Shown here: positions 142 to 29,134 of the stretch, piece after piece
Numbering within the stretch: position 1 is the stretch's first letter
Layout of the letters: every line of letters starts with the position of its first letter
Assembly (NCBI RefSeq): GCF_000260115.1
Contig: NZ_JH651379.1
Span: 3,032,240-3,064,239, forward strand
Source: Galbibacter orientalis DSM 19592
GTDB taxonomy: Bacteria > Bacteroidota > Bacteroidia > Flavobacteriales > Flavobacteriaceae
DNA length: 32,000 bases
Direction: 5' to 3'
The notes under the pieces: generated by a model
Seen by the model: the letters and a program-made list of their open reading frames with translations, nothing else
Databases searched by the model: none
Told to the model about the DNA's origin: nothing
Position numbers and translations under genes: made by a program

Positions 142-3100
142 ATGAAAAGACTATTATTAACCATGTCTTTGTTATTGTGTTGTACTATGGTATTCTCTCA
201 GACCATTACAGGTACAGTAACAGATTCGCAAGGAACTCCTTTGCCCGGAGTTTCCATTGTTGTTGATCAAACAGCAAAAGGAACATCAACAGATTTTGAT
301 GGTAATTACACAATTAATGCAACATCTAGTCAAGTATTAGTATTTACTTATGTAGGTATGAAAACGCTAAAAAAAAGCGTAGGCTCTGACAGTGTAATAG
401 ATGTTGTTTTAACTGAAGACGCTCAGAGTTTAGATGAAGTTGTGGTAACAGCTTTAGGTATTTCAAGAGATAAAAAATCTTTAGGATATGCTACTCAAGA
501 AGTAGATGGAGAAGATTTTAATTTAACTAATGAACAAAATGTTCTTGGATCACTATCAGGTCGTGTTGCAGGGGTTCAAGTAACAGGTGCTTCTGGAGCT
601 AGTATGGGGGGAACTCAAAAAATTAAAATCAGAGGAGTTAATTCTATTAGTGGAGGAGATCAACCACTTATAGTAATTGATGGAACCCCAATATCTAATG
701 CTAATTTTTCAGGGAGTGATCAAGCTGATTACGGAAATTTAGCGCAAGATATTAATCCTAATGACATAGCAGAAGTAAATGTTCTTAAAGGACCTGCAGC
801 ATCTGCATTATATGGAATACGTGGACAATTTGGTGTAATAATGATAACTACTAAAAAGGGTAAAAAAGGACCTCGAAAAGTAGATGTGCAGTTATCATCG
901 TCATTTTCTATGGAATCTGCGTATAATTTTATTCCGTTACAAAACATGTATGGAGGTGGATCTAGTCAGACATTTCGAACACTTCCAAACGGCGATCCAT
1001 ACGTAGATATGAGTGTTGATGAAAGTTGGGGACCAAAAATGGATGGAACTCCAGTGCGTCAGGTATTTAGTTTTTATCCTCAAGACCCTCAATATGGACA
1101 GCTAACACCTTTTGTTGCGCATCCAAATAATGTTGAAGATTATTATAAAACAGGAACAACATTTAATAATAGTATTACAATAACAGGGGGAAATGAAAAT
1201 ACTTCTATTCGTTTAAGCGCTAATGATACTAGAGTGGAAGGGGTGGTTCCTAATACTTCTTTAAACAGAAATAATGTTGGCTTGAGCGCAAGTTTAAACC
1301 TTACCGATAACTTGGTGGTTTCTAGTAATATTAATTATGCAGGAAATGAAGGGCAGCGTCCATCTCAAGGATCTGAATATGGAGGTGCATACATGGTTCA
1401 ATGGTTTCAAAGAAATTTAGATATGAACCGTTTAAGAGATTATAAATATAACGACGGAACCTTTCTTCATTGGAACTTAGGAAGACCAGATTCAAGTACT
1501 GGTGAAATATCAGATTTTGAACCGTTGTATTGGAACAATCCATATTTTGAAGCTTATGAAAATTTAAGTAATGATAGTCGAGATAGATTTTTTGGAGATA
1601 TAGGGATGTCTTATAAAATTATTCCTGAGCTAGAAGTTAGCGGATTCATACGTACGGATATGTATACACAAAATATAGAACAGCGTCAAGCTTTTGGAGG
1701 GACACGTTTACCTTCTTATTCGGTTGGGAAGTATCAAAACAAAGAATTTAACTACGAACTTTTAGCACAATATAAAAATACATGGGATAAATTTTCTTTA
1801 GATGCTACTGTAGGAGGAAATATTTATGATAGAGACTATAGTTATTTAAGTCAAAGTACAGTAGGAGGTTTATCTTCTCCTGGGTTTTATAATATTGCTG
1901 CTTCAATAGATCGTCCCGATACTAAATCTTACAAACTAAGAAAGAAGATTAGAAGTTTTTATAGTTTAGTTTCTTTAGGTTATGACGGAACATATTTTAT
2001 AGATGCTTCTATAAGAAATGACAACTCTTCTGCATTGCCAAAGGATAACAACTCTTATTGGTACCCTTCTGTTTCTGGAAGTGTTGTGTTTAGTGAGCTT
2101 ATAGATTGGACTCCTCTGTCATTTGGTAAAATTAGAGCTAGTTATGCACAAGCTGGTTCAGATTTAAGCCCGTATCAAACAAGTTTAAATTATGGAGTAG
2201 GAACTGTTTATAACGGAACTAATACTTTATATGTTCCAGATGAACTTAATAATCCAAATATAGAACCTTCTTTTTCTAATTCATTTGAAGCTGGTTTAGA
2301 GTTAAACTTTTTCAGTAATCGTTTAGGGTTTGATTTTACATATTATCAGCAAAAAAATAAAAACCAAATACTTAATCTAGATGTATCAGGAACAAGTGGT
2401 TATAGCTCAAGTATAATTAATGCAGGTTTAATTGAGAATGATGGATTTGAATTGTCTATTAATGCAACACCAATTCGCTCAGAGGATTTTTCATGGGACT
2501 TTACTTTTAATATTAATAAGAACAATAGTGAAGTTGTTGAGTTGGCTCCTGGAATAGATGTTTATACTTATGATTCTACAACTTATTCAAGTGTGTCTAG
2601 CTATTTGAATTCATATGAAGGTGAACCTTTCGGAAGTTTAGTAGGGCAAGCCTATGAAAGAGACGAGGCTACAGGAGAAATTCTTTTAGATGATAATAAC
2701 ATGCCATTGTATACAGACGCTACTCACAATTTTGGAACTGTTCTACCAGATTTCAATGGAGGTTTTCAGAATACCTTTAGAATAGGTCAATTTACAGTAA
2801 CAGGAATGATTGATTTCCAAGGTGGAGGTCAGTTTTTTAGTAGATCAAAAATGTTAGCAGTACGTACAGGTCAAGATGCACTTACCGTAGCCACCAATGA
2901 TAATGGGATGAATGTTAGAGATCCTCTAGATCAAGGCGGAGGAGTTAAAGTAACAGGAATTTCTGCCAGCACTGGAGAGGATGTTACAGCGTATGTAGAT
3001 GCTAGATCGTATTATAGAAATACATTAGGTAGAAGAATTTATGAAGAATGGTTGTACGACGCTTCTTATGTGAAATTGAGAGAGCTTAGAGTTCAATATA

Positions 3101-3309
3101 ATTTAGGGAAGAATATTATGGACAAACTTCCTTTTGAAACAATGAGTTTTGCTTTGATAGCTAGAAATCCTATCATGATTTGGCAAGAAGCTCCTAAAGG
3201 AATTAATCCTTCAGAAATATCAACAGGAGCACAGTCTATCAGTTGGTACGAATCAGGACAATTACCTTCTGTTAGATCTTATGGTATAAATTTAAATGTT
3301 ACATTTTAA
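142..3309 (+). CDS. SusC/RagA-family TonB-dependent outer-membrane receptor
   Basis: 1055-aa ORF with an N-terminal signal peptide, then a carboxypeptidase-regulatory-like domain (TGTVTDSQGTPLPGVSIVV) and a plug region (DEVVVTALG). A long beta-barrel ends in an aromatic residue (NLNVTF). A SusD-like lipoprotein gene follows 10 nt downstream. Confidence 0.9.
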   Translation: MKRLLLTMSLLLCCTMVFSQTITGTVTDSQGTPLPGVSIVVDQTAKGTSTDFDGNYTINATSSQVLVFTYVGMKTLKKSVGSDSVIDVVLTEDAQSLDEVVVTALGISRDKKSLGYATQEVDGEDFNLTNEQNVLGSLSGRVAGVQVTGASGASMGGTQKIKIRGVNSISGGDQPLIVIDGTPISNANFSGSDQADYGNLAQDINPNDIAEVNVLKGPAASALYGIRGQFGVIMITTKKGKKGPRKVDVQLSSSFSMESAYNFIPLQNMYGGGSSQTFRTLPNGDPYVDMSVDESWGPKMDGTPVRQVFSFYPQDPQYGQLTPFVAHPNNVEDYYKTGTTFNNSITITGGNENTSIRLSANDTRVEGVVPNTSLNRNNVGLSASLNLTDNLVVSSNINYAGNEGQRPSQGSEYGGAYMVQWFQRNLDMNRLRDYKYNDGTFLHWNLGRPDSSTGEISDFEPLYWNNPYFEAYENLSNDSRDRFFGDIGMSYKIIPELEVSGFIRTDMYTQNIEQRQAFGGTRLPSYSVGKYQNKEFNYELLAQYKNTWDKFSLDATVGGNIYDRDYSYLSQSTVGGLSSPGFYNIAASIDRPDTKSYKLRKKIRSFYSLVSLGYDGTYFIDASIRNDNSSALPKDNNSYWYPSVSGSVVFSELIDWTPLSFGKIRASYAQAGSDLSPYQTSLNYGVGTVYNGTNTLYVPDELNNPNIEPSFSNSFEAGLELNFFSNRLGFDFTYYQQKNKNQILNLDVSGTSGYSSSIINAGLIENDGFELSINATPIRSEDFSWDFTFNINKNNSEVVELAPGIDVYTYDSTTYSSVSSYLNSYEGEPFGSLVGQAYERDEATGEILLDDNNMPLYTDATHNFGTVLPDFNGGFQNTFRIGQFTVTGMIDFQGGGQFFSRSKMLAVRTGQDALTVATNDNGMNVRDPLDQGGGVKVTGISASTGEDVTAYVDARSYYRNTLGRRIYEEWLYDASYVKLRELRVQYNLGKNIMDKLPFETMSFALIARNPIMIWQEAPKGINPSEISTGAQSISWYESGQLPSVRSYGINLNVTF

Positions 3310-3319
3310 TTAAAGGAAG

Positions 3320-4708
3320 ATGAAAAACATATATATAAATACATTACTTATAGCTTTATTTATAACGAGTTGTAGTAATTTTGATGAGGATATTAATACA
3401 AATCCGAATGTTCCTAGTCAGGCTTCTGGTATGCAATTAATAGCACAAGCAGAGTTGTCGTTACCAGGTTTGAGTTCTTCCCCTCAAGGAGAGTTTATGT
3501 CACAATATTTAGCAGAAACTCAATATGTAGGGACATCTCTTTATCCACAGCAAAGTACAAGTTTCTATGGATGGTATCAAGGACCATTAGCCGATTTACA
3601 GGCCGTAATTACATCTGATAACTTAACAGGTACTGAAGGTCCTATAGAAAATCAAATAGCAGTAGCTAAAATATTAAAGGCTTATTATTTTTGGAATTTA
3701 ACAGACAGATGGGGAGATATTCCATACAGTGAAGCTTTGAAAGGACAAGAAGATTTTACTCCTATTTATGATTCTCAAGAATCTATATACAAAGATTTAT
3801 TTGCTGAATTGAAAGAAGCTTCAAATATGATTGTTACTGGTAATTTAAGTAATGATATTATTTATGATGGAGATATTAGTAAATGGAAGAAGTTTTCTAA
3901 TACTGTTAGAATGTTAATGGCGCTTCGTTTATCCGAAGTAGATCCTGCAACTGCACAAGCAGAGTTTGTAAGCGCTATTGATGATGGGGTTTTTACCTCT
4001 AATGATGATAATTTGTTTTTTCAGCATTTAGCTGATGCAAATAATCAGAATTACTGGTATGGGCAAATAGTAAATCAAAATAGAGAATGGTGGGCTCTTA
4101 CTGAAGGATTAGTAGATCAAATGAAGCCTGTAAACGACCCACGATTACCAATTTATGGAAATCCAGCTAGAGATAGTGGGGAGTATGTAGGAATGCTTTA
4201 TGGGGATGAAGTAAATTTAGGGACTCAAGAATATTCTTTACTGGGAGATGCAATTTATGCGCAAGATGCACCCGTATATTTAGTAACATATGCTCAGGTT
4301 CTTTTTGCAATGGCAGAAGCTTCTCAACGTGGTTGGATTGCAGGTGATACAGCATCTTTTTATGAAAGTGCTATTGAAAGTTCAATTTTACAGTGGACAG
4401 GTAATACAGATACAGTAGCAGATTTTATGATGGAGCCTGGGATTGCCTTTAATGATGCTATAGGCATTGAGCAGATAGCAACTCAACGTTGGGTACATTT
4501 ATTTATGTTTGGATATGAGGCATGGGCAGAGTGGAGAAGAACAGGTTTTCCAAATATGATGGTTTCTCCTAATGGAGCAGCTGTACCAGCTCGTTTAAGT
4601 TATCCAGATAATGAAGCTTTTAATAATGAAGTTAATTATAACGAAGCTTTAGATAGACAGTTTGGAGGTGAAGATTCTATTTACGGCCAATTATGGTGGG
4701 ATGAATAG
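3320..4708 (+). CDS. SusD/RagB-family nutrient-binding outer-membrane lipoprotein
   Basis: 462-aa ORF with a lipoprotein signal and lipobox Cys (LFITSC). It has the size, Trp/Tyr-rich helical composition and position directly after SusC that are typical of SusD-like proteins. Confidence 0.85.
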   Translation: MKNIYINTLLIALFITSCSNFDEDINTNPNVPSQASGMQLIAQAELSLPGLSSSPQGEFMSQYLAETQYVGTSLYPQQSTSFYGWYQGPLADLQAVITSDNLTGTEGPIENQIAVAKILKAYYFWNLTDRWGDIPYSEALKGQEDFTPIYDSQESIYKDLFAELKEASNMIVTGNLSNDIIYDGDISKWKKFSNTVRMLMALRLSEVDPATAQAEFVSAIDDGVFTSNDDNLFFQHLADANNQNYWYGQIVNQNREWWALTEGLVDQMKPVNDPRLPIYGNPARDSGEYVGMLYGDEVNLGTQEYSLLGDAIYAQDAPVYLVTYAQVLFAMAEASQRGWIAGDTASFYESAIESSILQWTGNTDTVADFMMEPGIAFNDAIGIEQIATQRWVHLFMFGYEAWAEWRRTGFPNMMVSPNGAAVPARLSYPDNEAFNNEVNYNEALDRQFGGEDSIYGQLWWDE

Positions 4709-4732: not shown

Positions 4733-4764
4733 AGAGCCACTCTTTTTAGGGTGGTTCTTTTATT
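4733..4764 (+). terminator. Rho-independent terminator after the SusD-like gene
   Basis: An 8-bp stem (agagccac / gtggttct, one G-U pair) with a 10-nt loop, followed by the T-rich run tttatttat. Before the MITE insertion it also abutted the stop of the convergent minus-strand gene. Confidence 0.55.
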
Positions 4765-4773
4765 TATATGAAT

Positions 4774-5117
4774 TATTGTTGTCCGAGAAAAAATACAAGA
4801 CCGCTTCGCTATAAGAAAAAAGAGCAAAGACTAAATATTAACTATCATAAAATGATTAGTTTAAAGAAATAACATTACTAAAATCTTCTTTTTATTCATT
4901 TTTATTAATAGCAAGGGGTCTATTTTTAAAACTCCAATCAGCTACCTCGGGGTAAGCCCGCTAGGTATTCAAAGGAAACAAATTTAACTCATTTCGACGC
5001 AGAGCCCTTCGGCAAACTCAGTACAGGCTCTGGGGAATTAGACCCTCTATGAGGGATTTAAACCTTGATATAAGTGGAGTCCAATAAATTTCCGTTAACT
5101 TTTATCGGACAACAATA
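4774..5117 (+). mobile_element. MITE-like non-autonomous element, copy A (344 bp)
   Basis: Perfect 13-bp terminal inverted repeats: tattgttgtccga at 4774-4786 and tcggacaacaata at 5105-5117, extendable to about 18 bp with one mismatch. A perfect 9-bp direct repeat TATATGAAT flanks it at 4765-4773 and 5118-5126. There is no ORF inside. A second full copy at 28320-28653 lies in inverted orientation. Confidence 0.85.
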
Positions 5118-6150
5118 TATATGAATCAATAATTTTAACTAAAACATCTAAATCTTTCTTGGTATGATGTGCACTCACTACAATTCTACTCATTAGTGGG
5201 GAATTCTTTTCTGGATAGTTAAAACTGGTTACTAAAATGTTGTTTTTAAATAGATATTCGGTAAGCTTTTCATCCATAAAGGTGAAAGTAGGGTGATTTC
5301 CTGCTTTGGTGAAGAGCGAATAATTTGATAGTTTCTTACTTAGGTAATTATTATTTTCAAAGAGTTTTTTTCTCTGAATGGTATAAATAGCTTCAGCTTC
5401 TAAAAGAGTAGCAAGAGATGCAGGACTGGCAGGAGAAGCACCACCAAAAAAGGACGTATTTGTAAGAGCTTTAATTCTTTTGGAGGAACCAAATATAACT
5501 CCAGCTTGAATAGCAAACCCTTTTCCTAACGAACCACATACAATAAGTTCTTTTGCATTTAATTGCTTAAGTATTTTAAAAATACCTTCTCCTTGCGCAC
5601 CTAAAACACCTAATCCATGGGAATCGTCAACTACTAAAATAGTTGTGGATAAATCCATTTTTTTTAACGAATTAAAGTCTGGATAATTATTTCCAATAAA
5701 ATCAATGGAATCTAAAAGTACTATTGGAATTGTGTTTTTAGGATTTTTATTTAAATCTTCTTGTAGCTGCTCATAGCTTTCATAGAACTGTTGTTCAGCT
5801 TGAAATAAAGATGCGTGGGTAAGAGGAGTATGGTAGCATGTATATTCTTCCGAAGTAAAAAAACGACTTACTAACTGAGAAGCCATATATCCAGAGGAAA
5901 GCGTTACACAACTTTCACTGCCAACCAGCTTTGAAAGATACTGCTCCACTTTTTCATAAATGGAAAAGCGTATATTGGACTTTCTAGACGCCCCGTAATT
6001 AGTTCCATATTTTTTTATATTATCAATAAAAAGCTCTTGAAACTCAAGCTGGGTTTGTAAGCCTAGGTATGCTGTTCCGCCAAAGTAAAGAAATTCTCCT
6101 TTGTCGGTTTTAATTATTCTTCCAGGAAATTCTTCAACAAAATGTGTCAT
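5095..6150 (-). CDS. PLP-dependent alpha-oxoamine synthase family enzyme (BioF/Kbl-like acyltransferase)
   Basis: 351-aa ORF with the family motifs FGGTAYLGL, DDSHGLGVLG and the PLP-lysine context GSLGKGFA. Its last 7 codons and stop codon are supplied by the MITE terminal repeat. Confidence 0.75.
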   Translation of the reverse strand: MTHFVEEFPGRIIKTDKGEFLYFGGTAYLGLQTQLEFQELFIDNIKKYGTNYGASRKSNIRFSIYEKVEQYLSKLVGSESCVTLSSGYMASQLVSRFFTSEEYTCYHTPLTHASLFQAEQQFYESYEQLQEDLNKNPKNTIPIVLLDSIDFIGNNYPDFNSLKKMDLSTTILVVDDSHGLGVLGAQGEGIFKILKQLNAKELIVCGSLGKGFAIQAGVIFGSSKRIKALTNTSFFGGASPASPASLATLLEAEAIYTIQRKKLFENNNYLSKKLSNYSLFTKAGNHPTFTFMDEKLTEYLFKNNILVTSFNYPEKNSPLMSRIVVSAHHTKKDLDVLVKIIDSYILLSDKS

Positions 6151-8073: not shown

Positions 8074-9753
8074 TTAGTTAATATGAGTGCTATCTATTTT
8101 AATTTCATAGTTAAGAGTATCTATTTCTTCTGAAGGAATACTATCTTCAATTACATCATCATTAGCATCTTCTAAATTTTCTTCAACAGGACAGTCCATA
8201 CAATTTAAAACTCCATGATTATCCATTTTCCAAGTATGATTTGCTAAATCATTGCTATAGTAGTTTAGATTGTTTTTAATATTTCCTTCCATATGATAAC
8301 GAGTAGAATTATGAAGCTTTACAAATGTATTTTCAGGAACATAAATAATAATTTCAATTTCTTGATCTCTAAATTTATTGTCGTAATCTGTTGTTAAATA
8401 ATTATTTAAATATACAATATTGTTTTCTACACTAAACTCATAATCTACATTTTCAGCTCTTTTGAAAGCATCTTTATAGTTACTTCCTTGCGATTTCTTT
8501 TCAATTTCAATACGAGCTTCGTTATTAGGAGATTGTTTTATAAAAAACTCCATGTCTTCTCGGTAGATCATTTTTTCATCACCATCTACTACAATATCAA
8601 AATCAGAATCGTGATAATATCTATTTTTTAGATTTTGAGCTTCCATAACTCTAATCTCTAAAGTATCTTTTTGAACTATATTTAATACTTCTGTTTCTGT
8701 TGCCATTGCATCAAAAGAGTAATCTGTAGCAGTTCTGATTCCTAAAATTGTAAGTCCTATTACAGAAAGTAACCATATTCCTAGTAAAGAAAATTTCGCA
8801 AAGTTTCCAATAGATTTTAAATTGTTTACCAATATTTTTAGTCCTAAATAGAACAAGAAAAAGAATGGTATTCCAACAGCAAAAAATGAAAGGAGAGAAA
8901 TAAGCCACACTGGAGCATCTACGGTAATGTCTACAAATTCTCTCCATGGTTGCGCTCCCCATAAATCAATCGTTCCTGCTGTAAAGAGACCTATTAATAA
9001 ACTTATTAAAACAGTTGCTGCAAAAATTAAAACTATAATTCCAATAAGCTTTGCTACTACTTTAAAAAGGAATAGAATAACTGCTAGGATCGAATCAAAA
9101 AAATTTTTGGAATTTTTTTTTACCGATTGTCCCATTTTATCGTAATCTACACTTTTCACTTTTTCAGTAACTTCATCGAAACCCTCTTTAATTTTTTTTT
9201 CGATGTTACTAATATTAACAGGCTCTCCCGTCATGGCTATTTTTTGAGCTGTGGTAGCTGCTTCTGGAACCAAAATCCAAAATAAAATGTATACTAAAAT
9301 TCCGAAACCAGATAATAGTGTTGTTAAAATAAATAACAATCGTACCCAAAGCGCATCAATTCCTAAATAATAACTCAATCCAGCACATACACCACCAATA
9401 TATTTATGGTCGGTATCTCTAAATAATTGCTTGTGAGGTTTTCTGGTATTCGATTTACTAGACTTAGGTTCGTCTTCAAAAATTTCTTCATCTACCAAAT
9501 AGTCTTCTGGTTGTCCCATAATTGTAATAACCTCGTCTACTTCTTTAGTAGTAATAACTTGTCTTTCGTGCAGTAATCTTTCAGTAAAAAGCTCTGCAAT
9601 TCGCGCTTCGATATCGGCAATAATTTCAGATTTCCCTTGAGAATCTGTAAAGGAGCGTTTAATAGCGTCCAAATAGCGCTGTAATTTTATATAGGCGTCT
9701 TCATCTATGTGGAAGAAGGTATTTGCCAAATTTATGTTGATAGTCTTATTCAT
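8074..9753 (-). CDS. PspC domain-containing membrane protein with a DUF1700-like N-terminal helical region
   Basis: 559-aa ORF with the PspC domain signature YIGGVCAGLSYYLGIDALWVRLLFIL, several transmembrane helices and a C-terminal extracytoplasmic domain. It starts 11 nt after the padR stop. Confidence 0.85.
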   Translation of the reverse strand: MNKTININLANTFFHIDEDAYIKLQRYLDAIKRSFTDSQGKSEIIADIEARIAELFTERLLHERQVITTKEVDEVITIMGQPEDYLVDEEIFEDEPKSSKSNTRKPHKQLFRDTDHKYIGGVCAGLSYYLGIDALWVRLLFILTTLLSGFGILVYILFWILVPEAATTAQKIAMTGEPVNISNIEKKIKEGFDEVTEKVKSVDYDKMGQSVKKNSKNFFDSILAVILFLFKVVAKLIGIIVLIFAATVLISLLIGLFTAGTIDLWGAQPWREFVDITVDAPVWLISLLSFFAVGIPFFFLFYLGLKILVNNLKSIGNFAKFSLLGIWLLSVIGLTILGIRTATDYSFDAMATETEVLNIVQKDTLEIRVMEAQNLKNRYYHDSDFDIVVDGDEKMIYREDMEFFIKQSPNNEARIEIEKKSQGSNYKDAFKRAENVDYEFSVENNIVYLNNYLTTDYDNKFRDQEIEIIIYVPENTFVKLHNSTRYHMEGNIKNNLNYYSNDLANHTWKMDNHGVLNCMDCPVEENLEDANDDVIEDSIPSEEIDTLNYEIKIDSTHIN

Positions 9754-9764
9754 AGTTAGTGTTT

Positions 9765-10088
9765 TTATTTTGTTACCAGGTTAACTGCGTTTCTTAGTTC
9801 GTCCCAAGTGGTGTTGAGTTCTTTTAAAAATAGTTTGCCATTCTCGGTTAGGGTGTAATACTTACGTGGAGGTCCGGATGTGGACTCCTCCCAACGGTAA
9901 CTTAATAACCCTGCGTTTTTCAGTCTTGTTAATAGCGGATAAATAGTTCCTTCTACTACAAGCATTTTTGCGTCTTTTAAGGTCTCAAGAATTTCTGAAG
10001 CATATTTATCCTCATTTTCTATGATGGATAAAATACAGTATTCCAAAACCCCTTTTCGCATTTGTGCTTTTGTGTTCTCTATATTCAT
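9765..10088 (-). CDS. PadR-family winged-helix transcriptional regulator
   Basis: 107-aa ORF with the PadR hallmark segments GVLEYCIL ... GTIYPLLTRLKNAGLL ... RKYYTLTENG. Confidence 0.9.
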   Translation of the reverse strand: MNIENTKAQMRKGVLEYCILSIIENEDKYASEILETLKDAKMLVVEGTIYPLLTRLKNAGLLSYRWEESTSGPPRKYYTLTENGKLFLKELNTTWDELRNAVNLVTK

Positions 10089-12649: not shown

Positions 12650-12870
12650 TAGAGAAATAACGTTCGATTATTCCACTATTTCGAAGAAGGATTTTGAAAA
12701 TTAAATCCTTTATAATGGAGTTAAATCCCTCATTGAGGGTTTTATTCCCCAAAGCCTGTCCAGAGTTTACCGAAAGGTTCTACGTCGAAATGGATTAAAA
12801 TATTTTTCCTTTGAATACCCGTAGGCTTGCATCGAAGTAGTTGATTATCGATTATCTAGTAAAATAGAGG
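12650..12870 (-). repeat. Degenerate, deletion-bearing copy (C) of the MITE-like family; boundaries approximate
   Basis: The core 12717-12847 aligns with copy B 28370-28500, including the hairpin CCCTC-ATT-GAGGG, the ...gtcgaaatg... block and the cctttgaatac...gtagttgatt module. No intact TIRs are visible. Confidence 0.7.
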
Positions 12871-12981
12871 CGCTCTTTTGAGAATCCTTTAAATATTTTG
12901 TAATTTGCAGCCACTGCATGGATGATTTCTCTCCGTAAGAAGGAATTGTATAGTTTCACATTTTTAAATTTCGATTTCAGA

Positions 12982-14226
12982 ATGGCAGTTTTGGAAAAAT
13001 TAACTTCGCAAGATGCAATTGCATTAGAGAACAAGTATGGCGCACACAATTATCATCCGCTTCCTGTGGTATTAAGCAGAGGAGAAGGGGTATTTATGTG
13101 GGATGCCGAAGACAAAAAATATTACGACTTTCTATCGGCTTACTCTGCCGTAAATCAAGGTCATTGTCATCCACGAATTATAAATGCTATGATGGAGCAA
13201 GCAAAAACACTTACGCTTACTTCTCGTGCTTTTTATAATGATGTTTTGGGTGTTTTTGAAAAGTATGCAACGTCATATTTTGGTTTTGATAAGCTTTTAC
13301 CTATGAATACAGGTGCGGAAGCTGTAGAGACTGCTATAAAAATATGTAGAAAATGGGCATATGAGAAAAAAGGAATAGCGGAAGAGAAGGCTCAGATTAT
13401 TGTTTGTGAAAATAATTTTCATGGGAGAACAACCACAATTATATCTTTTTCAAATGATGAAGATGCACGTAAGAATTTTGGGCCTTATACTCCAGGATTT
13501 ATTAAAATTCCTTATGATAATACAGAGGCGTTAGAAAAAGCTTTAAAAGAAAATACTAACATCGCAGGTTTTTTAGTAGAACCAATTCAAGGAGAAGCTG
13601 GAGTTTACGTTCCTTCTGAAGGGTATCTAACAAAAGCAAAAGCACTTTGTAAAGAGCATGGGGTTTTATTTATTGCTGATGAAATTCAGACTGGAATTGC
13701 AAGAACTGGGAAATTGTTGGCGGTAGATCATGAAAATGTAAAACCAGACATGCTTATTCTAGGAAAAGCAATTAGTGGTGGCGTATATCCTGTGAGTGCT
13801 GTATTGGCAAACGATGACGTAATGGGTGTTATAAAACCGGGTCAGCACGGAAGTACATTTGGAGGAAATCCTGTGGCTGCAGTTGTAGCTATGGAAGCTC
13901 TGGAAGTAGTGAAAGATGAAGGACTAGCTAAAAATGCTGAGACATTAGGAACGTTATTCAGAAGTGAACTTCAAAAATATATTGATAATAGCACTATTGT
14001 TAAGTTAGTTAGAGGAAAAGGATTATTAAACGCTATTGTAATTAACGATAGTGAAGATAGTTCTACCGCATGGGATATTTGTATGTCCTTAAAAGAAAAT
14101 GGCCTTTTAGCAAAACCAACGCATGGTAATATTATTCGTTTTGCACCACCTTTGGTAATGACAGAAGAGCAATTACACGATTGTATTTCTATTATTACAA
14201 AAACTTTGAAGGAGTTCGAAAAATAA
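12982..14226 (+). CDS. rocD: Ornithine aminotransferase (class III PLP aminotransferase)
   Basis: Motifs [25 protein letters not shown] and the PLP lysine in LGKAISGG. I chose the ATG at 12982 (MAVLEKL); the longer ORF starting at 12922 runs into the upstream repeat. Confidence 0.9.
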
Positions 14227-14282: not shown

Positions 14283-14405
14283 CTAATTAATTACTTCGGG
14301 GGCAAGTCCACGAAGCATCTTTAACTTATTTCAACGCAGAGCCTTTGATATACTCAGAACAGGCTCTGGGGAATTAGATACTCTATAAGGAATTAAATAA
14401 GGATT
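14283..14405 (+). repeat. Partial copy (D) of the MITE-like family, internal modules only
   Basis: It aligns with copy A 4940-5060. The hairpins are cttcg-N12-cgaag (14294-14315) and cagagcc-N18-ggctctg (14337-14368), followed by gggaattaga. Confidence 0.75.
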
Positions 14406-28184: not shown

Positions 28185-28319
28185 AAACTGTTCAACTTAT
28201 TTAACCTACTATTTTACAACTATAACATTTTATAACATTTTGTTTAAAATAATACAATAATTTAGAAGTTGGTTAATTTCTTATAAACGTTTTAAAAAGT
28301 TTACTTTTGTAAAAAGTAT

Positions 28320-28653
28320 TATTGTTGTCCGATAAAAGTTAACGGAATTTATTGAACTCCACTTACATCAAGGTTTAAATTCCTCATAGGGGGTTTAATT
28401 ACCCAGAGCCTGTACTGAGTTTGCCGAAGTACTCTGCGTCGAAATGAGTTAAATTTGTTTCCTTTGAATACCTCGCGGACTTGCCCCGAGGTAGTTGATT
28501 GGAGTTTTAAAAATAGACCCCTTGCTATTAGTAAAAATGAATAAAAAAGAGAATTTTTGAAATGTAGTCTTTTTAAGCTGCTTATTTTGTGGTAGTTAAG
28601 GCTTATTTTTTTCTTATAGCGAAGCGGTCTTGTGTTTTACTCGGACATTAATG
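28320..28653 (-). mobile_element. MITE-like non-autonomous element, copy B (334 bp), inverted relative to copy A
   Basis: One end, tattgttgtccgataaaagttaacgg, is identical to the copy A end. The other end, tcggacattaatg, matches the TIR at 10/13. A perfect 9-bp direct repeat AAAAAGTAT flanks it at 28311-28319 and 28654-28662. It shares exact runs of 34 and 41 nt with copy A. Confidence 0.85.
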
Positions 28654-28667
28654 AAAAAGTATATAAA

Positions 28668-29095: not shown

Positions 29096-29134
29096 CTTTG
29101 AATCCCTCGTAGGCTTGCCTCGAGGTAGTTGATT
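29096..29134 (-). repeat. Solo hairpin module (E) of the MITE-like family
   Basis: ctttgaatccctcgtaggcttgcctcgaggtagttgatt aligns with copy B 28463-28500. The stem is cctcg / cgagg with an 11-nt loop. Confidence 0.6.

What the first reader, a model, noticed from the sequence alone, without database searches (positions are those of the whole stretch)
4765..5126. A MITE-like element with perfect 13-bp terminal inverted repeats and a perfect 9-bp target-site duplication
The sequence shows TATTGTTGTCCGA at 4774-4786 and its exact reverse complement at 5105-5117. These are immediately bracketed by the direct repeat TATATGAAT at 4765-4773 and 5118-5126. The 344-bp interior has no ORF and contains three hairpin modules: acctcg..ctaggt at 4945-4967, cagagcc..ggctctg at 5000-5032, and ccctc-tat-gaggg at 5043-5055. 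A second full copy at 28320-28653 has a different 9-bp duplication, so the two are independent transposition events of one family. No transposase is present in the window, so mobilisation must occur in trans. A 9-bp duplication is what IS4-, IS903- and IS1-type transposases produce, but I cannot assign the TIR to an IS family by eye. I also cannot tell from sequence alone whether this family is already catalogued.
Basis: seen in the sequence. Interest (0 to 1): 0.72.

Follow-up and report, generated by a model that had tools for sequence, protein, structure and literature searches.

The report
Nested pair of miniature mobile elements
The 344-bp feature is a real miniature transposon insertion in Galbibacter orientalis, but its three hairpins belong to a second, much more abundant 120-bp mobile repeat nested inside it, and that repeat's insertion pattern points to single-strand (IS200/REP-type) transposition.

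Summary
Confirmed and extended. A near-conspecific contig and Joostella atrarenae carry the uninterrupted site with one copy of the 9-mer. There the neighbouring gene ends ...DSYK*, as predicted for the uninterrupted gene, so this is a true insertion.

The element is a composite. The basic MITE is about 216 bp, with imperfect ends (CATTAATGTCCGAG ... TCGGACAACAATA). Eleven copies with both ends readable have 7-9 of 9 matching flanks.

The three hairpins belong to a separate 120-bp repeat, the "core" (AATCAAC...GAGGG):
- It occurs alone at about 50 sampled intergenic sites, three of them in this window.
- It entered the MITE at three different positions and also entered a third MITE family.
- It has no inverted ends and makes no duplication.
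- It always lies just 5' of ATT(N)AA.
- Its orientation follows replication-type GC skew (36 of 38 copies, p = 6.5e-8) but not gene direction.

These are hallmarks of HUH/Y1 single-strand transposition. I found neither that transposase nor the MITE's parent insertion sequence. There was no match in Rfam, plasmids, phages or the literature. Both families are uncatalogued members of known kinds, so interest is moderate.

The parts
4765..4773 (.). Left copy of the 9-bp target-site duplication of MITE copy A (TATATGAAT)
   Evidence: Read directly. Relatives have a single copy at this site: L177 (aactatata) and L179 (attcgtata).
4774..5117 (+). Composite MITE copy A (344 bp): MITE backbone 4774-4935 and 5056-5117, with the core repeat nested between them
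   Evidence: The MITE profile matches 4775-4939 and 5056-5117 with the core between. The copy is present in all conspecific strains sampled.
4774..4791 (+). Left terminal inverted repeat of copy A (13 bases perfect, 17 of 18 extended)
5100..5117 (-). Right terminal inverted repeat of copy A
4936..5055 (+). Nested core repeat (120 bp, AATCAGCTACC...GAGGG) with hairpins at 4944-4966, 5000-5032 and 5043-5055, followed by ATTTAA
   Evidence: Core-less MITE copies read ...AAAACCTC|ATTTAAACC... at this point. The same unit occurs alone elsewhere.
5118..5126 (.). Right copy of the 9-bp target-site duplication of copy A
5095..6150 (-). Aminotransferase-like gene whose last seven codons and stop (ILLSDKS*) come from the junction and the MITE right end
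   Evidence: Relatives without the insertion end ...IIDSYK*...SYQK* and ...LYK*.
4735..4758 (.). Terminator-like hairpin shared by the convergent genes, lying just outside the insertion
   Evidence: It is conserved next to the empty site in L177 and L179.
28311..28319 (.). Target-site duplication of copy B (AAAAAGTAT)
28320..28653 (-). Composite MITE copy B (334 bp, 87% identical to A), lying between dapD and ruvX; its left end (at 28641-28653) is of the common CATTAATG type
   Evidence: It is present in all strains with an identical DapD.
28381..28500 (-). Core repeat nested in copy B, at the same backbone position as in copy A
28654..28662 (.). Second copy of the target-site duplication of copy B
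12727..12846 (-). Solo core repeat C (120 bp), in the intergenic region between the AIM24 gene and the class-III aminotransferase gene
   Evidence: It is absent from the syntenic spacer in the Joostella species.
14285..14391 (+). Solo core repeat D (107 bp variant lacking the spacer between hairpins 1 and 2)
   Evidence: The syntenic spacer is about 100 bp shorter in L175 and L177.
29096..29134 (-). Remnant of solo core E, shortened by a deletion between the internal direct repeats GAGG(G/T)ATTCAAAG
   Evidence: The unit is full length (127 bp) at the same site in L002-L009.

Best explanation
The window comes from Galbibacter orientalis DSM 19592 (formerly Joostella marina). The feature at 4765-5126 is a genuine insertion of a non-autonomous DNA transposon.

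Shown:
- It landed at the last codons of an aminotransferase-like gene and duplicated 9 bp of target.
- It is a composite of two unrelated mobile repeats.

The outer element is a MITE of about 216 bp. Its 13-18-bp terminal inverted repeats are imperfect in most copies. It duplicates 9 bp on insertion. This implies, by inference, a DDE-type transposase acting in trans. That enzyme was not found.

The inner element is a 120-bp "core" with three hairpins. It belongs to a separate and far more abundant family.

Shown for the core:
- It entered a MITE copy, and the composite then transposed as a unit to at least four sites, including copies A and B.
- It has no inverted ends and makes no target duplication.
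- It sits immediately 5' of ATT(N)AA.
- Its orientation tracks the replication-associated strand asymmetry, not gene direction.

Inferred for the core: it moves as single-stranded DNA at replication forks. An HUH/Y1 tyrosine transposase (IS200/IS605 TnpA or a REP-associated RAYT) would insert its top strand 3' of TT(N)AAT on the lagging-strand template. The hairpins would then be the enzyme's recognition structures, not an RNA.
For: Insertion of copy A:
- L177 (J. atrarenae) and L179 (about 94.7% identical to the window) read straight through the site with one 9-mer. Their intergenic spacers are 55 and 52 bp, and L175 (Joostella sp. CR20) has 48 bp, against 386 bp in the window.
- P0126 ends ...IIDSYK*, exactly the predicted uninterrupted C-terminus.

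MITE family:
- I found 16-17 distinct sites.
- Matching bases in the 9-bp flanks were 9/9 in five copies, 8/9 in four and 7/9 in two.

Composite nature:
- Core-less 206-223-bp copies occur in L094, L112, L117, L131, L140, L143 and L150.
- There are 54 core clusters, about 50 of them solo sites, and none lies inside a called long ORF.
- The core sits at three different MITE positions: about 159 in A, B, L137 and L141; 13 in L096; and 1 in L104.
- It also sits in a third MITE family, for which an empty paralogue exists.

Target of the core:
- The three junctions with an exact empty comparison read CCTC|ATTTAAACC, TATC|ATTAATG and CTTT|ATTAACG.
- 39 of 41 aligned copies are followed by ATT.

Strand bias of the core:
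- 17 of 19 adjacent pairs share the same orientation (p = 7e-4).
- 27 of 54 agree with the majority gene strand, so there is no link to gene direction.
- After the coding-strand effect is removed, 25 of 27 '+' copies lie in loci with negative skew and 11 of 11 '-' copies in loci with positive skew. Fisher p = 6.5e-8 per copy and 3.8e-4 per locus.
- The MITE, used as a control, shows no such link.

Agreement with known IS200/IS605 biology: the strand that carries the target 5' of the element is the G-rich strand. On the usual rule that the leading strand is G-rich, that strand is the lagging-strand template. This matches the published rule (PMC5027513). [quoted passage not shown]
Against: - No Y1/HUH gene and no DDE transposase with matching ends was found in about 0.7 Mb of partly redundant conspecific sequence. 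The whole genome could not be scanned.
- On the putative top strand, the hairpin at the left end abuts the boundary. In IS608 it lies about 19 nt inside, as I recall from the literature.
- The core boundary is ambiguous by one A, so a 1-bp duplication cannot be excluded.
- Replication direction was inferred from GC skew in loci of 5-32 kb, not from mapped origins.
- Solo copy D in the window, and the copy in L152, break the orientation rule.
- Only three empty-versus-filled comparisons are exact. All three are inside other repeats.
Confidence: 0.78

Rival explanations
1. One reading: a single 344-bp MITE whose three internal hairpins are intrinsic modules of that element.
For: Copies A and B share the whole 344-bp layout. 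The same layout, with the core at the same backbone position, recurs in truncated form in L137 and L141.
Against: Seven or more MITE copies lack the hairpin block exactly. The block occurs alone at about 50 sites. It lies at other positions in L096 and L104 and in an unrelated MITE.
Confidence: 0.03
2. The 120-bp core is a family of structured non-coding RNA genes or RNA regulatory elements, such as stabilisers or terminators. It would be kept for an RNA function rather than spread as a mobile element.
For: The hairpins fold better than shuffled sequence (z = -2 to -4). There is one compensatory A-U to G-C change between the two subfamilies, plus G-U wobble pairs on one strand. Subfamily I carries a TAAATTTG motif, like the Bacteroidetes -7 promoter box, on the reverse strand.
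Against: - No Rfam family matches, even at E <= 10.
- RNAalifold finds no consensus structure (-0.74 kcal/mol).
- Hairpin 2 is broken in subfamily II.
- Orientation is unrelated to neighbouring genes but is tied to the replication strand.
- Copies are truncated, internally deleted or nested in other repeats. They are absent from the syntenic sites of sister species.
Confidence: 0.08
3. The core is mobile but is moved by something other than a Y1/HUH enzyme. Candidates are an IS110/IS1111-type DEDD recombinase, a site-specific recombinase, or an ERIC/BOX-like process with no known enzyme. All could give target-specific insertion without duplication.
For: The core has no inverted ends, makes no duplication and has a conserved flank. 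No Y1 gene was seen in the sample.
Against: These mechanisms do not, to my knowledge, predict an orientation bias tied to replication strand. No such enzyme gene was seen next to any core either.
Confidence: 0.2
4. The flanking 9-mers are an ancestral tandem feature and the region is not an insertion.
For: None beyond the AT-rich composition of the flanks.
Against: Relatives carry a single 9-mer and a 48-55-bp spacer. Other copies have different 9-mers.
Confidence: 0.01

Closest known systems
Bacterial MITEs, including nested or composite ones (for example Correia elements of Neisseria and the composite BrickBuilt MITE of Porphyromonas gingivalis; recalled from the literature, not tested here)
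   Same: They are short and non-coding. They have terminal inverted repeats and a fixed-length target duplication. They occur in many dispersed intergenic copies, are mobilised in trans, and can alter gene ends.
   Different: The sequence is unrelated to anything in plasmids, phages, Rfam or the searchable literature. The duplication is 9 bp rather than TA. The parent insertion sequence is unknown. So far the family has been seen only in G. orientalis and metagenome contigs that resemble it.
IS200/IS605-derived non-autonomous elements (palindrome-associated transposable elements, PATEs)
   Same: They have no inverted ends, make no duplication and have hairpins near both ends. They insert next to a fixed short motif that stays on one side. 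[quoted passage not shown]
   Different: No cognate tnpA or full-length element was found. One hairpin abuts the element boundary. The target motif, T(N)AAT, has variable spacing.
REP/BIME sequences with RAYT (TnpA-REP), especially Y1 subclass 2.6 of Bacteroidetes (PMC6006769)
   Same: They are high-copy intergenic structured repeats in a Bacteroidetes genome. The published subclass is described as flanked by atypical secondary structures that have copies elsewhere in the genome.
   Different: Classical REPs are single palindromes of 20-40 bp with a GT[AG]G foot. This unit is 120 bp with three hairpins and two subfamilies. No RAYT gene was located.
ERIC and BOX elements of enterobacteria and pneumococci (recalled from the literature)
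   Same: They are of similar size (about 120-130 bp), are modular with hairpins, lie between genes and have truncated or internally deleted variants.
   Different: ERIC is one long imperfect palindrome. To my knowledge, neither family has been reported to show a replication-strand bias or a one-sided target.

Membership tests
MITE (non-autonomous DDE-type transposon) | Terminal inverted repeats | tested here: met
   The repeat is 13 bases perfect and 17 of 18 extended in copy A. It is imperfect but recognisable in 11 other copies.
MITE (non-autonomous DDE-type transposon) | Target-site duplication of fixed length that differs between copies | tested here: met
   The duplication is 9 bp. Eleven copies match at 7-9 of 9 positions, and all have different sequences.
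MITE (non-autonomous DDE-type transposon) | Small size, no coding capacity, multiple dispersed copies | tested here: met
   Copies are 206-223 bp (344 bp with the nested core). No ORF of 80 aa or more lies inside. There are 16-17 distinct sites.
MITE (non-autonomous DDE-type transposon) | Empty site in related genomes | tested here: met
   L177 and L179 carry a single 9-mer at a contiguous site. The protein C-terminus ...DSYK* is as predicted.
MITE (non-autonomous DDE-type transposon) | Cognate autonomous insertion sequence with the same termini | tested here: inconclusive
   No pair of matching ends around an ORF was found in any fetched locus. The whole genome and ISfinder could not be searched.
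   No ISfinder access and no transposase found. A 9-bp duplication alone does not discriminate between these families.
IS200/IS605-type single-strand element (for the nested core) | No terminal inverted repeats and no target duplication | tested here: met
   Ends are AATCAAC... and ...GAGGG. Three empty-versus-filled comparisons show no duplication, apart from an ambiguity of one A.
IS200/IS605-type single-strand element (for the nested core) | Insertion 3' of a specific tetra- or pentanucleotide that stays on one side only | tested here: met
   39 of 41 copies are followed by ATT and then (N)AA. The motif was already present at the three exact empty sites.
IS200/IS605-type single-strand element (for the nested core) | Subterminal hairpins at both ends | tested here: met
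   Hairpin 1 starts 7 nt from one end, and hairpin 3 lies at the other end. Both fold in either strand. The spacing differs from IS608.
IS200/IS605-type single-strand element (for the nested core) | Orientation bias that fits the lagging-strand template | tested here: met
   36 of 38 copies follow replication-type GC skew (p = 6.5e-8), and the MITE control shows no bias. This is a proxy; replication origins were not mapped.
IS200/IS605-type single-strand element (for the nested core) | A Y1 HUH transposase in the genome that recognises these ends | tested here: inconclusive
   Motif scans of about 0.7 Mb of conspecific loci found none.
REP/RAYT | A short single palindrome with a conserved GT[AG]G foot, next to a RAYT gene | tested here: not met
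   The unit is 120 bp with three hairpins. No 5' GTAG foot lies on the strand that carries the hairpin foot. No RAYT gene was seen.
Any Rfam RNA family | Covariance-model match at the gathering score | tested here: not met
   There were 0 matches in the window. The best sub-threshold match was 17 bits against a gathering score of 39.

The most novel reading that the evidence does not exclude
The 120-bp three-hairpin core may be the natural high-copy substrate of a so far uncharacterised Bacteroidetes Y1 enzyme, such as RAYT subclass 2.6. It would be an actively transposing, target-specific single-strand element intermediate between an insertion sequence and a REP. It could also hitch-hike inside DDE-type MITEs and so escape its own strand rule. 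Alternatively, no Y1 gene may exist in the genome, and the strand-biased, duplication-free spread would then reflect an unknown mechanism.
Probability: 0.2. Interest if true: 0.65.

Novelty: new member of a known kind. Interest (0 to 1): 0.45.

Why it matters
It adds two uncatalogued families of non-autonomous elements in a marine flavobacterium, with unusually clean evidence: exact empty sites, nesting in several configurations, and a strand rule.

The core family could give a sequence-defined substrate for studying single-strand (HUH) transposition in Bacteroidetes, where the Y1 subclasses are known only from gene surveys.

In practical terms, these repeats break short-read assemblies; one contig ends 36 bp into copy A. 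They also rewrite gene ends, as with the aminotransferase-like C-terminus. They fill promoter regions, such as the dapD-ruvX spacer. They would be mis-annotated if treated as one element.

The broader significance is moderate, because MITEs, nested MITEs and REP- or PATE-like repeats are all established concepts.

Tried and rejected
- **Rfam:** the gathering-score scan of the whole window gave nothing. The E-value scan of 4740-5150 gave only chance-level matches. These include a CRISPR-DR8 match at E = 0.56 on hairpin 3, which I regard as noise.
- **blastn:** the 344-bp element against the plasmid and phage collections gave no match.
- **Genome-contig scan:** a gapped core pattern gave 0 hits. 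I treat this as uninformative, because the source species itself was not recovered. The 80 other Flavobacteriaceae loci it did return contain no copies.
- **Viral contig scans:** two core patterns gave 0 hits. The MITE end gave 4 hits with no further homology, so they are chance matches.
- **Consensus RNA structure:** RNAalifold found no consensus. Pair counting gave only weak covariation.
- **Parent insertion sequence:** I searched for inverted-repeat-like 13-mers outside known copies. The only lead, L114:12482, is a degenerate end with no transposase.
- **Y1 transposases:** three motif scans of six-frame translations gave no hits.
- **The 434-aa gene between inverted cores C and D:** I considered it as a possible transposase. 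It is a class-III aminotransferase.
- **Polymorphic solo-core sites among strains:** none were clean. Site E is an internal deletion, not an excision.
- **Literature:** searches for the sequences and for MITEs in Flavobacteriaceae found nothing relevant.

Full report
**Observation**

- TATTGTTGTCCGA is at 4774-4786 and its reverse complement at 5105-5117. TATATGAAT flanks both ends at 4765-4773 and 5118-5126.
- The 13-mer occurs three times in the window, against none in 100 shuffles.
- The inverted repeat extends to 17 of 18 bases.
- The second copy (28320-28653) lies in the opposite orientation and is 87% identical. It is flanked by AAAAAGTAT on both sides, and its far end is degenerate.
- The three hairpins are where stated, give or take one base.

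**Source and neighbourhood**

An exact-sequence look-up places the window in Galbibacter orientalis DSM 19592, formerly Joostella marina En5T.

Copy A lies between two convergent genes: a SusD-like gene (3320-4708) and an aminotransferase-like gene (5095-6150, minus strand). The last seven codons and the stop of the second gene are read from the junction and the element's right end.

Copy B fills most of the divergent spacer between dapD and ruvX.

**Proof of insertion**

All conspecific strains and metagenome contigs sampled carry both copies. Relatives do not.

- In Joostella sp. CR20 and J. atrarenae the same two genes are 48 and 55 bp apart, against 386 bp in the window.
- J. atrarenae reads ...aactatataaataaaagaaccaccctaaaaagagtgg.... 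This is the window's two flanks joined through a single 9-mer.
- A protein in the same 90% cluster, P0126, is 345 aa long and ends ...IIDSYK. That is exactly what the window gene would encode without the element.
- The contig carrying P0126 (L179) is about 94.7% identical to the window. It reads ...attgattcgtataaataagagaaccaccc... with a 52-bp spacer, and homology to the window starts right at the element's boundary.

The insertion and its 9-bp duplication are therefore established.

**The element is a composite**

A blastn of the element against the window found its positions 163-288 again, without the ends, at 12721-12846, 14312-14397 and 29096-29134.

A metagenome scan with a core 19-mer returned 73 loci. 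About half are from deep-ocean samples that hold this species. Searching them with the element and with two profiles gave three classes:
- The full composite.
- MITE copies of 206-223 bp that lack positions 160-282 exactly. These are in L094, L112, L117, L131, L140, L143 and L150.
- About 50 distinct solo copies of the 120-bp block, here called the core.

The basic MITE begins CATTAATGTCCGAG and ends TATCGGACAACAATA. Among copies with both ends readable, the 9-bp flanks match 9/9 in five, 8/9 in four and 7/9 in two, and every copy has a different 9-mer.

Copy A's perfect inverted repeat is the extreme of a series of left ends: CATTAATG, TATTAATG, TATTAGTG, TATTGTTG.

The core sits at backbone position about 159 in A, B, L137 and L141, so the composite transposed after the nesting. 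It sits at position 13 in L096 and at position 1 in L104. These are independent nesting events.

A core also interrupts a copy of a third MITE family, which has the ends CTTATCTTGACTTTTT. An uninterrupted paralogue of that copy exists in L131.

**Nature of the core**

- It runs from AATCAAC to GAGGG.
- Hairpin 1 starts 7 nt from the 5' end, a central hairpin is intact only in one of two subfamilies, and hairpin 3 lies at the 3' end.
- It has no inverted ends.
- At the three junctions with an exact empty comparison, the uninterrupted sequence reads CCTC|ATTTAAACC, TATC|ATTAATG and CTTT|ATTAACG. The core lies at the bar with no duplication, apart from an ambiguity of one A.
- In the alignment, 39 of 41 copies are followed by ATT and then AA, TAA or CAA. 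The motif is therefore a target kept on one side only.
- None of the copies lies inside a called long ORF. Their direction is unrelated to the neighbouring genes: the four gene-arrangement classes hold 15, 11, 10 and 9 copies, and 27 of 54 copies agree with the majority gene strand.
- Neighbouring cores nevertheless point the same way in 17 of 19 pairs (p = 7e-4).

I split each locus's GC skew into a coding-strand part and a remainder, and used the remainder as a proxy for replication direction.
- Of '+' copies, 25 of 27 lie where the remainder is negative.
- Of '-' copies, 11 of 11 lie where it is positive (Fisher p = 6.5e-8 per copy, 3.8e-4 per locus).
- The exceptions are the copy in L152 and nested copy A, which was carried in passively by the MITE. 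Solo copy D in the window was not counted separately, but it also points the wrong way.
- The MITE shows no such link.

The strand that has the target 5' of the element is the G-rich one. On the usual rule that the leading strand is G-rich, that strand is the lagging-strand template.

[quoted passage not shown] I therefore think the core is a non-autonomous single-strand element moved by a Y1 enzyme. This step is inference. No Y1 gene was found in about 0.7 Mb of partly redundant conspecific sequence, and the whole genome could not be scanned.

**RNA alternative**

- No Rfam family matches.
- RNAalifold finds no consensus structure.
- A named three-hairpin structure is 88.5% paired against 87.0% in shuffles. 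The only substantial compensatory change is one A-U to G-C swap that separates the two subfamilies.

Together with the lack of any link to gene direction, this makes an RNA gene family unlikely. It does not exclude incidental transcription.

**Distribution and abundance**

- The syntenic regions of the two Joostella species lack copy A and solo cores C and D.
- The 80 other Flavobacteriaceae loci hold no copies.
- Plasmids, phages and viral contigs hold none.
- The zero result of the genome-collection pattern scan is not informative, because the source species was not recovered by either genome scan.

In about 45 kb chosen without regard to the repeats (the window plus its protein-anchored extensions) there are five cores and two MITEs. 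This suggests a few hundred cores per genome. That figure is a rough extrapolation of my own.

**Verdict**

A 216-bp MITE carries a nested member of a second, more abundant family with a different and more interesting mode of spread. Both families are new members of known kinds.

Noticed in passing
L145:3735-4075 and L131:4101-4272: This is a third MITE-like family of about 170 bp, with 16-bp perfect inverted ends (CTTATCTTGACTTTTT ... AAAAAGTCAAGATAAG). The L145 copy carries a nested core and the L131 copy is uninterrupted.
   Followed up: partly
window 29096-29134 versus L004:8937-9063: In DSM 19592 the solo core downstream of ruvX is cut to 39 bp by a deletion between two internal direct repeats, GAGG(G/T)ATTCAAAG. 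Other strains keep the full 127 bp. The same short repeat follows hairpins 1 and 3, so the core is prone to internal deletion.
   Followed up: yes
window 12727-12846 and 14285-14391: The class-III aminotransferase gene (12922-14226) is bracketed by two cores in inverted orientation. It looks like a composite element but is a housekeeping gene. Core D is a shortened variant that points against the local strand rule.
   Followed up: partly
window 142-4708 versus L175, L177 and L179: The SusC/SusD pair next to copy A varies between close relatives. The window has proteins of 1055 and 462 aa; L179 and Joostella sp. CR20 have 1036 and 493 aa; J. atrarenae has two pairs, one matching the window's in size (1055 and 462 aa) and one of 1006 and 500 aa. 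Homology between the window and L179 stops at the MITE boundary, so the insertion sits at the edge of a replaced polysaccharide-utilisation segment.
   Followed up: no
window 4979-4986 (-) and 28450-28457 (+): The reverse strand of subfamily-I cores contains TAAATTTG, a perfect match to the Bacteroidetes -7 promoter motif TAnnTTTG. No suitably spaced TTG lies upstream of it. In copy B a weaker TATTTTTT lies 64 nt upstream of the ruvX start, inside the MITE, so the MITE may now supply that promoter.
   Followed up: no
L094:9341-9546 and 9750-9908: Two MITE copies about 200 bp apart share the same right flank. This indicates a local tandem duplication of a MITE plus its flank, not two separate insertions.
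   Followed up: no
L001 (Logan SRR398974 contig), end of locus: The short-read contig of the type strain ends 36 bp into copy A, and another (L172) ends inside its right arm. These repeats break assemblies. The published draft genome started from 240 contigs (PMC3739173).
   Followed up: no
L179:1-4700: In the near-conspecific contig, the region upstream of the shared genes is replaced by genes for an AAA_22 protein, a 684-aa protein and a Peptidase_S24 repressor-like protein. This may be a mobile element or a prophage remnant that is absent from the window strain.
   Followed up: no
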